A stretch of DNA of 7,817 nt from a virus (IMGVR_UViG_2695420486_000008); one strand, 5' to 3'; numbered from the stretch's first letter, positions 1,237 through 1,437 are shown. Notes: generated by a model from the sequence alone, not told the origin. Translations and numbers: made by a program.

Positions 1237-1437
1237 GGGGTGTTAGCCAGCCAGACCCGGCATGATTACTGCCCCCAGTCGTCCATGATCCGGGGGGTGA
1301 TGTCACCGGGTCTGGTGGGGCGCTGGTAACCGCTAATAGGGGTCAGGTCAGGCACTTTTGCCGGGACCGTCTGTAACGTGGATGCCGGTACCTGCTCCCC
1401 GTGGTTATCTGGTTAACCCATATACAAGGGAGACAGA
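1237..1437 (+). ncRNA. Candidate bridge RNA (IS110-family guide ncRNA) in the left non-coding end
   Basis: Perfect TATAAT at 1231-1236 with no usable -35 upstream. A 10-bp inverted repeat ccagacccgg (1251-1260) / ccgggtctgg (1306-1315) encloses a 45-nt loop. Two 9-nt segments (1291-1299 and 1334-1342) match the IS right boundary. Exact ends not determinable. Confidence 0.45.

What the first reader, a model, noticed from the sequence alone, without database searches (positions are those of the whole stretch)
1251..1342. Two segments of the candidate bridge RNA address adjacent 9-bp half-sites at the IS right boundary on opposite strands
RNA-sense 1334-1342 (TAATAGGGG) is identical to plus-strand DNA at 2659-2667, the last bases before the flank. 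RNA-sense 1291-1299 (CGGGGGGTG) is the exact reverse complement of 2668-2676 (CACCCCCCG), the first bases of the flank. The two half-sites abut at 2667|2668 and are read in opposite senses. The first segment lies inside a loop closed by a perfect 10-bp inverted repeat (1251-1260 / 1306-1315). This matches the guide geometry of a bridge RNA, with a target-type guide 5' of a donor-type guide, and implies the recombination junction is at 2667|2668. Two 9-mer matches to one 18-bp window within a 230-nt region are unlikely by chance.
Basis: partly seen in the sequence, partly recalled or inferred. Interest (0 to 1): 0.75.

Follow-up and report, generated by a model that had tools for sequence, protein, structure and literature searches.

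The report
ISEc20 bridge RNA guide loops
The flagged segments are two guide stretches of the bridge RNA of ISEc20, an IS110-family insertion sequence that targets runs of C; this kind of system has been known since 2024, and the exact crossover point inside the C-run is still unresolved.

Summary
1334-1342 equals 2659-2667, 1291-1299 is the reverse complement of 2668-2676, and 1251-1260/1306-1315 is a perfect stem. The element (about 1210-2670) is ISEc20, an IS110-family insertion sequence found in 1463 of 5426 complete E. coli genomes. Its recombinase gene is frameshifted here by a 10-bp duplication. Eighty relatives from Proteobacteria and Actinobacteria share a 5' non-coding RNA with two internal loops closed by covarying stems (18 pairs with compensatory changes). 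Loop 1 carries ACUGCCCCC, which resembles the left flank, and GGGGGGUG, which is the complement of the right junction CA-CCCCCC. Loop 2 carries AUAGGGG(C), identical to the right end, and GUAACGUG, the complement of the left end. This is the IS621 bridge-RNA geometry. The match between loop 2 and the right end covaries (10 A/A, 41 G/G, 2 discordant). One relative has a compensatory variant of the loop 1 complement. Only 7-8 nt of each 9-mer are conserved. The core lies within CAC (2668-2670). Unoccupied alleles and tandem arrays show the crossover register in the C-run is not fixed. It is a new member of a known kind and of modest interest.

The parts
1207..1210 (+). C-run at the left junction: left-target half plus core. 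The last C may belong to the element.
   Evidence: In 68 distinct left junctions of relatives the flank ends in a run of 1-8 C (mode 4-5) before GTTAC. The base at -1 is always C, and -2 is C, T or A. Upstream sequence in the window is N-masked.
1211..1218 (+). Left end of ISEc20 (right-donor half, (C)GTTAC). It includes TACTTT (1213-1218), a candidate -10 box of a promoter formed only on the circular form.
   Evidence: GTTAC[T/C][T/A]T is present at the left end of nearly all relatives where that end could be read. With a CAC junction, TTGACA (2650-2655) lies 17 nt upstream of TACTTT. This was worked out by hand. IS621 has the same layout.
1224..1242 (+). 5' stem-loop (ACCCC-UUAUAAU-GGGGU)
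   Evidence: The MFE fold pairs it. Relatives keep a hairpin here with different stems, such as GCCCCGATAATTGGGGC, GCCTCGATAATCGAGGC and ACCTTGAGCCTCAAGGT.
1250..1266 (+). 5' strand of the stem closing loop 1, the target-binding loop
   Evidence: It pairs with 1302-1316. That helix has 15 pairs, 99% of cells paired, and 6 pairs with changes on both sides.
1268..1277 (+). Left-target guide (LTG), ACUGCCCCC(A), same sense as the left flank
   Evidence: Of 53 sites whose LTG is G+C5, 33 have G before the flank C-run, and 29 of those have exactly 4 or 5 C. Relatives with UCCCCCC have longer runs, often preceded by T (5 of 9). The L002 flank TTTCTGCCCCC matches UUACUGCCCCC at 10 of 11 positions.
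1278..1289 (+). Small hairpin between the two guides of loop 1 (GUC...GAU)
   Evidence: Three invariant pairs enclose a loop of variable length.
1291..1299 (+). Right-target guide plus core and handshake positions: (C)GGGGGG-UG, antisense to 2668-2675
   Evidence: The segment is near-invariant in relatives. L078 has GGGGUGUG with right junction CA-CACCCC, a compensatory change. Internal deviations in the flank hexamer are almost all C to T, which rG-dT wobble would tolerate.
1302..1316 (+). 3' strand of the stem closing loop 1
1318..1332 (+). 5' strand of the stem closing loop 2, the donor-binding loop
   Evidence: It pairs with 1386-1399. That helix has 12 pairs, 8 of them with changes on both sides.
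1334..1345 (+). Left-donor guide (LDG), UAAUAGGGG(U)CA, same sense as the right end 2659-2669
   Evidence: Position 7 of ATAGGGN covaries with the right end: 41 G/G, 10 A/A, 2 discordant.
1346..1368 (+). Hairpin inside loop 2
   Evidence: Five pairs, 4 of them with changes on both sides.
1373..1382 (+). Right-donor guide (RDG) plus core and handshake positions: GUAACG-UG-GA, antisense to (CA)CGTTAC of the left end
   Evidence: GTAACGTGGATG was the search anchor, so it is fixed by selection in every locus analysed. The window sequence shows directly that it is complementary to the left end. L021, L022 and L060 have a right end joined to CA-CGTTAC.
1386..1399 (+). 3' strand of the stem closing loop 2
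1438..2644 (+). IS110-family recombinase gene, inactivated here by a 10-bp tandem duplication (GCTTCGCTGG, 2026-2035)
   Evidence: PF01548 falls in ORF 1438-2049 and PF02371 in ORF 1970-2644. The intact 398-aa protein has both domains. Alignment to an intact copy shows the duplication. It is a distant homologue of the IS621 transposase, PDB 8wt6, E=1.2e-14.
2650..2655 (+). TTGACA, a candidate -35 box of the circle-junction promoter
   Evidence: TTGAC lies 5-6 nt upstream of ATAGGG in nearly all relatives whose right end could be read. A promoter reconstituted across RE-LE is known for the family.
2661..2667 (+). Left-donor half (LD), ATAGGGG, the last element-specific bases
2668..2670 (+). Core region CAC. 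The core dinucleotide is CA or AC.
   Evidence: C is 53 of 53 and A is 49 of 53 at the right junction. The corresponding left-junction base is C, T or A. All four guides can be read as ending in CA/UG.
2670..2675 (+). C-run: right-target half (RT)
   Evidence: Three 99.7-99.9% identical copies in one genome carry CCCTCC, CCCCCCC and CCCCCC here. The unoccupied phage site in strain VL40 reads CCCG-C7-GACAG.

Best explanation
Window 1225-1400 encodes the bridge RNA of ISEc20, an IS110-group insertion sequence spanning about 1210-2670. The RNA has a 5' hairpin and two internal loops. Loop 1, the target-binding loop, carries ACUGCCCCC (1268-1276) and GGGGGG-UG (1292-1299). [quoted passage not shown] Loop 2, the donor-binding loop, carries AUAGGGG(C) (1336-1343), with the same sense as the last bases of the element. 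It also carries GUAACG-UG (1373-1380), complementary to (CA)CGTTAC at the element's first bases. The DEDD/Ser recombinase bound to this RNA would bring together a circular copy of the element and a run of C in the target. It would exchange strands at a dinucleotide within CAC/CC. The circular junction would read ...TTGACA-N12-ATAGGGG-CAC-GTTAC... and would create a sigma-70 promoter for the RNA. What is shown: the RNA structure, the four sequence correspondences, their conservation and covariation, and the protein family. What is inferred: transcription, circle formation and the chemistry, by analogy with IS621. Two points remain unresolved. One is the exact cleavage register. The other is whether the C's next to the ends always come from the target. 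This copy cannot supply its own recombinase.
For: The element is annotated ISEc20 and is present in 1463 of 5426 E. coli genomes. The protein has PF01548 and PF02371 and hits the IS621 transposase structure. Durrant et al. list ISEc20/ISSfl4 in the IS110 group with the ncRNA in the left end. Sixty-five sequences from 80 relatives give a two-loop structure: 35 pairs, 97.6% of cells paired versus 26-51% when partners are slid, 18 pairs with compensatory changes, and 0 of 500 shuffles reaching any measure. The guide segments are near-invariant and lie outside the stems that covary. The sense rule matches IS621: the 5' side has the same sense, the 3' side is antisense, followed by handshake positions. 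LDG and LD covary: 41 G/G, 10 A/A, 2 discordant. L078 pairs RTG GGGGUGUG with flank CA-CACCCC. Right-junction conservation stops exactly after 8 nt. Copies within one genome differ mainly in that 8-mer. Right ends joined to CA-CGTTAC occur in two unrelated taxa. TTGAC in the right end and TAC..T in the left end are conserved at promoter spacing.
Against: Rfam 15 gives no hit, so no curated model confirms membership. RNAalifold pairs the guide segments with each other: CCCCC with GGGGG, and part of the LDG with the RDG region. Those columns never vary, so this cannot be excluded. The 5' variable bases of the LTG do not track left flanks better than permuted pairs do. In ISEc20 itself the LDG has an extra U relative to the right end. 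None of the seven sites with an unoccupied allele is a plain LT-core-RT split. No circular junction was found. No expression data were available.
Confidence: 0.85

Rival explanations
1. It is a bridge RNA, but CACCCC(CC) at 2668-2675 travels with the element rather than being target flank. The real crossover would then be a CC at or near the end of the C-run. Segment 1291-1299 would pair mainly with the element's own right end, as an extended handshake or donor contact. Target choice would rest on the left half-site (G-CCCC) alone.
For: The unoccupied terminase allele in sister strains (L009: CCCG-CCCC-AGCAAC) equals the occupied site minus GTTAC...CACCCCCC. The right junction reads CACCCCCC even where the unoccupied tract has only C3 (rtcB), C5 (terminase) or T-C5 (yecD) before the unique flank. 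In a tandem array each copy is followed by its own C-run. Collapsed-repeat contigs of relatives end in CACCCCCC.
Against: Three near-identical copies in one genome differ in this 8-mer. ISEc20 copies carry CACCCCCC, CCCCCCC, CA-C7 and CA-C11. Internal deviations are C to T only, as wobble with the guide would tolerate. Under this model every other unoccupied allele needs a 4-10 nt deletion. A circle with 8 nt between GGGG and GTTAC would break the conserved promoter spacing. Tandem junctions carry only C4-C5.
Confidence: 0.12
2. The internal copies of the end sequences are protein-binding subterminal repeats, or parts of a 5' UTR structure that regulates recombinase translation. They would not be RNA guides.
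For: Many insertion sequence families have subterminal repeats. The structured region directly precedes the start codon at 1438, and the free RNA can fold with the segments partly paired.
Against: Stem covariation shows selection on an RNA fold. The same-sense/antisense pattern and the positions of the four segments match the experimentally established IS621 rule. The protein is an IS110-family recombinase. One segment matches flank sequence, which an end-binding repeat would not.
Confidence: 0.02
3. The two matches are chance similarity between G/C-rich sequences.
For: A single match of 9 nt or more to the 18-bp site arises in 9.9% of shuffles.
Against: The exact pair never arose in 20,000 shuffles. 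The correspondences hold across relatives from several phyla, with covariation.
Confidence: 0.01

Closest known systems
IS621 bridge RNA and recombinase (Durrant et al. 2024, PMC11208160; Hiraizumi et al. 2024, PMC11208158)
   Same: Both have a DEDD plus Ser recombinase with PF01548 and PF02371. In both, the ncRNA lies in the left end upstream of the gene and has a 5' hairpin, then a target-binding loop, then a donor-binding loop. [quoted passage not shown] Both have a -35 box in the right end and a -10 box in the left end, with the core in the spacer. In IS621 the core occupies spacer positions 14-15. In ISEc20, AC would occupy positions 14-15.
   Different: The proteins are only distantly related: the match covers the C-terminal domain only, E=1.2e-14. 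The target is a homopolymeric C-run rather than a REP-type sequence. As a result the two target guides (CCCCC and GGGGGG) are complementary to each other and the pairing register is degenerate. The donor core base A usually differs from the target. Natural junctions are not plain splits of the unoccupied site.
IS110 of Streptomyces coelicolor, ISSfl4 and other members of the same recombinase cluster in Durrant et al., Supplementary Table 1
   Same: ISEc20 is listed in one cluster with IS110, ISSfl4, ISBma3, ISAar2 and others. ISSfl4/ISEc20 are listed as 'LE, IS110' for ncRNA location and group. The 80 relatives found here span the same mix of Proteobacteria and Actinobacteria.
   Different: No paper in the searchable library describes the guides, target or core of this clade.
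Single-strand, half-match and direct-transfer pathways proposed for IS110 elements (bioRxiv 10.64898/2026.08.31.748434; 10.1101/2025.10.25.684509)
   Same: The left junction keeps a target-type base (C or T) and the right junction keeps the donor A. This is what top-strand transfer predicts. Right ends joined to a lone CA-CGTTAC, and the loss of DNA between a left and a right half-site, look like half-site reactions.
   Different: Those papers rest on experiments with IS621 and CazIS110-1. Here there is only comparative sequence, and homologous recombination between tandem copies could give the same products.

Membership tests
IS110-family (IS110 group) insertion sequence | [quoted passage not shown] | tested here: met
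   E=6.9e-49 and 7.3e-22 for the intact protein. In the window the two domains lie in two ORFs separated by a frameshift. The protein hits PDB IS621 and ISCro4 transposases.
IS110-family (IS110 group) insertion sequence | Long non-coding left end, short right end, and no terminal inverted repeats | tested here: met
   The left end is about 228 nt (1210-1437) and the right end about 25 nt (2645-2669). The ends GTTAC... and ...ATAGGGG are not inverted repeats.
Bridge RNA (IS621 type) | Structured ncRNA in the left end with two internal loops closed by stems | tested here: met
   5 helices, 18 pairs with compensatory changes, 97.6% of cells paired.
Bridge RNA (IS621 type) | Donor-binding loop: 5' side identical to LD(+core), 3' side complementary to core+RD | tested here: met
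   AUAGGGG(C) matches the right end, with G/A covariation. GUAACGUG is complementary to CACGTTAC.
Bridge RNA (IS621 type) | Target-binding loop: 3' side complementary to core+RT | tested here: met
   GGGGGGUG is complementary to CA-CCCCCC. Conservation ends after 8 nt. L078 carries a compensatory variant. Deviations are C to T only.
Bridge RNA (IS621 type) | Target-binding loop: 5' side identical to LT+core | tested here: inconclusive
   The anchor base before the flank C-run (G or T) and the run length track the guide type. However, the variable 5' bases do not beat permuted controls, and the register is ambiguous by 1-3 nt.
Bridge RNA (IS621 type) | The same 2-nt core in donor and target, present at both junctions | tested here: inconclusive
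   The right junction has C-A-C. The left junction has C-[C/T/A]-C. A shared C is always present but the A usually is not. Seven unoccupied alleles do not give a clean core duplication.
Bridge RNA (IS621 type) | Circular intermediate whose RE-LE junction forms the promoter of the RNA | not testable with these tools
   Candidate -35 and -10 boxes sit at 17-18 nt spacing if the junction is CAC. No circle junction turned up in one metagenome scan and two viral-contig scans. Only tandem arrays with C4-C5 junctions were found.
Bridge RNA (IS621 type) | Match to a curated covariance model | tested here: not met
   Rfam 15 gives only chance-level hits in 1100-2750. Whether Rfam holds a bridge-RNA family at all was not established. 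The models of Durrant et al. are not available here.

The most novel reading that the evidence does not exclude
Because the target, both target guides and the region around the core are homopolymeric, ISEc20-type elements may not obey the one-core, scarless rule. The two ends may be joined to left and right half-sites independently, or at sliding CC registers. This would rewrite the C-rich tract to match the guides: G-C4-5 | IS | CA-C6, with A, G or T interruptions removed. It would also build tandem arrays and leave long pure C-runs that frameshift genes such as rtcB, dgcE, a hydrolase gene and a phage terminase gene. The asymmetry between junctions (target base kept on the left, donor A kept on the right) would then be a natural record of top-strand-only transfer.
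Probability: 0.3. Interest if true: 0.6.

Novelty: new member of a known kind. Interest (0 to 1): 0.35.

Why it matters
It assigns concrete guides, a target (a C-run preceded by G) and a core region to a very widespread IS110 clade. That clade includes IS110 itself, ISSfl4 and ISEc20, and it is found in about a quarter of complete E. coli genomes and in Burkholderiales and Actinobacteria. Its guide segments are almost invariant across phyla. That makes it a natural example of a bridge system fixed on a short, ubiquitous homopolymer. The junction data offer a cheap in-genome test of the current dispute over single-strand versus double-strand transfer and half-site recombination. For this window alone, the result is ordinary annotation of a defective insertion sequence copy in a prophage.

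Tried and rejected
(1) Rfam 15 at gathering and E-value thresholds gave no bridge-RNA hit, only tRNAs, prophage sRNAs and chance hits.
(2) I could not find the window's own genome among complete E. coli genomes. The best place covers 56% of the window, so the masked left junction stays unknown.
(3) L017 and L018 share the window's right flank, but their left flank is unrelated to the unoccupied VL40 site. They could not serve as an isogenic pair.
(4) Scans for a circular RE-LE junction failed.
(5) A permutation test for covariation between the variable 5' bases of the LTG and left flanks was not significant at any offset.
(6) I searched for a terminase allele with nine C, as a plain-insertion model predicts. 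None exists in complete E. coli genomes. The best full-length matches (98.0% identity) are consistent with the intact ACCACCCCC allele of the same length.
(7) I first thought the empty-site data moved the right end to 2671-2675, making CACCCCCC part of the element. Variation among copies within one genome, the L078 variant, the C-to-T-only deviations and the promoter spacing make this the minority view. I kept it as a rival.
(8) A literature search for 'ISEc20' found no description of its RNA or target.

Full report
**Observation.** 1334-1342 TAATAGGGG equals 2659-2667. 1291-1299 CGGGGGGTG is the reverse complement of 2668-2676. 1251-1260 pairs perfectly with 1306-1315. Neither match extends further. 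In 20,000 dinucleotide-preserving shuffles of 1207-1437, a single match of 9 nt or more to the 18-bp site is not rare (9.9%), because the region is rich in G-runs. The specific pair never occurred.

**What the element is.** Window 1207-2667 matches the RefSeq-annotated 'IS110-like element ISEc20' at 99% identity. ISEc20 occurs at 2387 places in 1463 of 5426 complete E. coli genomes. The intact 398-aa protein carries PF01548 (DEDD_Tnp_IS110) and PF02371. It is a distant homologue of the IS621 and ISCro4 transposases of known structure. In the window the gene is broken by a 10-bp tandem duplication at 2026-2035. The non-coding region is identical to that of intact copies. The supplement of Durrant et al. 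2024 places ISEc20 in one recombinase cluster with IS110 itself and ISSfl4, and lists ISSfl4/ISEc20 as IS110 group with the ncRNA in the left end. Rfam 15 gives no hit. No searchable paper describes this element's RNA or target.

**Relatives and RNA structure.** A protein-guided scan of one genome per species returned 80 loci at 73-99% amino-acid identity. They come from Enterobacteria, Burkholderiales, other Proteobacteria and Actinobacteria. Their 5' non-coding regions align well. I defined a structure from the stems that vary and left the invariant segments unpaired. It has 35 pairs in 5 helices:
- 97.6% of cells are paired, against 26-51% when the 3' partners are slid by 1-3 columns.
- 18 pairs show compensatory changes.
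- 0 of 500 shuffles reached any of the measures.

In window coordinates the parts are:
- a 5' hairpin at 1224-1242, whose stem differs between relatives;
- loop 1, closed by 1250-1266/1302-1316;
- loop 2, closed by 1318-1332/1386-1399, with an inner hairpin at 1346-1368.

[quoted passage not shown] It therefore reads like the top strand, over 8-9 nt. [quoted passage not shown] Two handshake bases follow it. After strand exchange they pair with positions 6-7 of the other partner. So the 3' side of the target loop is the reverse complement of the right junction, and the 3' side of the donor loop is the reverse complement of the left junction.

**The four guide segments.**
- Loop 1, 5' side: ACUGCCCCC(A), 1268-1277.
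- Loop 1, 3' side: (C)GGGGGGUG, 1291-1299.
- Loop 2, 5' side: UAAUAGGGG(U)CA, 1334-1345.
- Loop 2, 3' side: GUAACGUGGA, 1373-1382.

The ends of the element in relatives read [flank]-C(1-8)-GTTAC[T/C][T/A]T ... TTGAC-N(5-6)-ATAGGG[G/A]-C-A-CCCCCC-[flank]. Hence:
- The loop 2 5' side equals the last element bases (LDG/LD).
- The loop 2 3' side is the complement of (CA)CGTTAC (RDG/RD).
- The loop 1 3' side is the complement of CA-CCCCCC at the right junction (RTG).
- The loop 1 5' side resembles the left flank G-CCCC(C) (LTG).

**Evidence beyond conservation.**
- Where the RNA has AUAGGGA, the right end has ATAGGGA. The counts over 53 junctions are 10 A/A, 41 G/G and 2 discordant.
- L078 has GGGGUGUG in the RNA and CA-CACCCC at its right junction.
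- Right-junction conservation ends sharply after 8 nt.
- Deviations at internal positions of the C hexamer are C to T in 10 of 11 cases. rG-dT wobble would tolerate exactly these.
- Three copies in Pseudoclavibacter helvolus are 99.7-99.9% identical, yet carry CACCCTCC, CCCCCCCCC and CACCCCCC at that position. That segment therefore behaves as flank.
- In Shigella/E. coli (L021, L022) and in Cupriavidus (L060), a right end is joined to CA-CGTTAC, the exact complement of the RDG.
- For the LTG, 33 of 53 sites of the G+C5 guide type have G before the flank run, and 29 of those have 4 or 5 C. The UCCCCCC guide type has longer runs, often preceded by T. The variable 5' bases did not beat permuted controls.

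**Core and junction.** All four guides can be read as ending in CA/UG.

A register one base to the right (core AC, 2669-2670) has three points in its favour:
- It fits the left junctions better. The base at -1 is always C, the base at -2 is C, T or A, and G plus five C then lines up with the LTG.
- It reproduces the IS621 promoter geometry. IS621 reads TTGCAG-N13-CT-N2-TATTAT. ISEc20 with a CAC junction reads TTGACA-N13-AC-N2-TACTTT.
- The handshake bases then read GG opposite CC.

I cannot separate the two registers. Either way, the right junction nearly always keeps the donor A (49 of 53), and the left junction nearly always has a target-type C or T. Top-strand transfer predicts this, and two recent preprints propose it.

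**The complication.** I recovered unoccupied alleles for seven sites and for the window's own right flank.

| Site | Unoccupied tract | Occupied left junction | Occupied right junction |
|---|---|---|---|
| yecD | ATG-C5-T-C5-GCT | ATG-C5\|GTTAC | CA-C7\|GCT |
| terminase | CCCG-ACCACCCCC-AGC | CCCG-C4\|GTTAC | CA-C6\|AGC |
| rtcB | CTG-C4-G-C3-TCG | CTG-C4\|GTTAC | CA-C6\|TCG |
| ter island | CTG-C8/10/11-G-C6-TTT | CTG-C5\|GTTAC | C7\|TTT |
| dgcE | CCAG-A-C10-AAC | CCAG-C4\|GTTAC | CA-C6\|AAC |
| hydrolase | GCCA-C11-ACA | GCCA-C3\|GTTAC | CA-C6\|ACA |
| autotransporter | two C-runs 145 nt apart | first run | second run |

Further points on these sites:
- At yecD the total length is unchanged and T has become C. 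At terminase the total length is also unchanged and two A have become C.
- At the ter island the flanks are 100% identical between the occupied and unoccupied alleles.
- At the autotransporter site the left junction uses the first C-run and the right junction the second.
- The window's phage site in strain VL40 reads CCCG-C7-GACAG.
- A 5-nt-shorter terminase allele in sister strains (CCCG-C4-AGC) equals the occupied site minus GTTAC...CACCCCCC.
- Frameshifted alleles with long pure C-runs exist at rtcB (C12) and hydrolase (C15). The only dgcE allele recovered (A-C10) is also frameshifted.
- Tandem arrays of two and three ISEc20 copies occur, with junctions GGGG-CACCCC-GTTAC and GGGG-CCCCC-GTTAC.

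So occupied sites are not plain splits of the unoccupied tract. The flanks always look like the guides. There are three possible explanations:
- The crossover slides within the homopolymer, so the element exchanges C's with its flanks.
- The left and right half-sites are used independently.
- Nearby or tandem copies collapse by homologous recombination.

I could not decide between these. Homopolymer length errors in assemblies add noise.

The identification as bridge-RNA guides with the target loop 5' of the donor loop is correct. The RTG-type and LDG-type assignments are correct. The two half-sites do abut at the right boundary. Four corrections apply:
- The matches are 7-8 nt, not 9.
- CA at 2668-2669 is core, not plain flank.
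- The cleavage point is not fixed by these data.
- Two further guides (1268-1277 and 1373-1382) complete the picture.

**Novelty.** Bridge RNAs have been established since 2024, and this clade was in the original catalogue. The specific anatomy appears undescribed, and its homopolymer target gives it unusual behaviour. That behaviour is worth a population-scale or biochemical follow-up. I rate it a new member of a known kind, interest 0.35.

Noticed in passing
window 1-1147, 2670-3760, 3822-4200: A phage segment of about 1.1 kb is present two and a half times. It carries tRNA-Gly, -Thr, -Arg and a CAT-anticodon tRNA that RefSeq calls tRNA-Ile in strain VL40, all on the minus strand. The insertion sequence sits between two copies, and the window itself starts in the same C-run that flanks the element on the right. 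This suggests a duplication associated with the insertion sequence.
   Followed up: partly
window 4831-5246, minus strand: Rfam gathering-level hits cluster upstream of the antiterminator Q region of this lambdoid prophage: sRNA-Xcc1 (4831-4914), C4 antisense RNA (5048-5131), isrK (5157-5233) and c4-a1b1 (5194-5246).
   Followed up: no
window 2026-2035: A 10-bp tandem duplication (GCTTCGCTGG) frameshifts the recombinase gene. This copy would depend on another copy for recombinase, while its RNA region is intact.
   Followed up: yes
window 1148-1178, 1185-1206, 3811-3821: Runs of N mask the left junction of the insertion sequence and a spot inside the tRNA repeat. The left flank of this copy cannot be compared with the left-target guide.
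   Followed up: partly
L215 1739-1746; L216 287-293 and 1739-1746: ISEc20 forms head-to-tail tandem arrays: two copies on plasmid pO177B1 and three on the SMN197SH3 chromosome. Only C4-C5 (with or without CA) lies between the right end of one copy and the left end of the next. The last copy in the chromosomal array is followed by CA-C11.
   Followed up: partly
L021, L022 and L060, right junctions: Right ends are joined directly to CA-CGTTAC followed by unrelated sequence, in Shigella/E. coli and in Cupriavidus. This looks like a donor-type junction or a recombination with a lone right-donor-like half-site.
   Followed up: partly
L012 (rtcB), L220 (dgcE), L223 (hydrolase), L009 (terminase): At known ISEc20 insertion sites, unoccupied alleles occur with long pure C-runs (C10-C15) or short deletions that frameshift the gene. 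These may be footprints of ISEc20 or hypervariable hot-spot targets.
   Followed up: partly
L003 versus L008: In an autotransporter gene the insertion sequence replaces about 145 bp lying between two C-runs. The left junction is at the first run and the right junction at the second.
   Followed up: partly
L053 right junction: The right end is joined to GGGCGGGCGG, a G-rich sequence that may be an inverted C-rich target. This suggests an inversion product.
   Followed up: no
window 1231-1236: A perfect TATAAT lies in the loop of the 5' hairpin (GATAAT in many relatives). There is no obvious -35 box in the integrated state, and its role is unknown.
   Followed up: no
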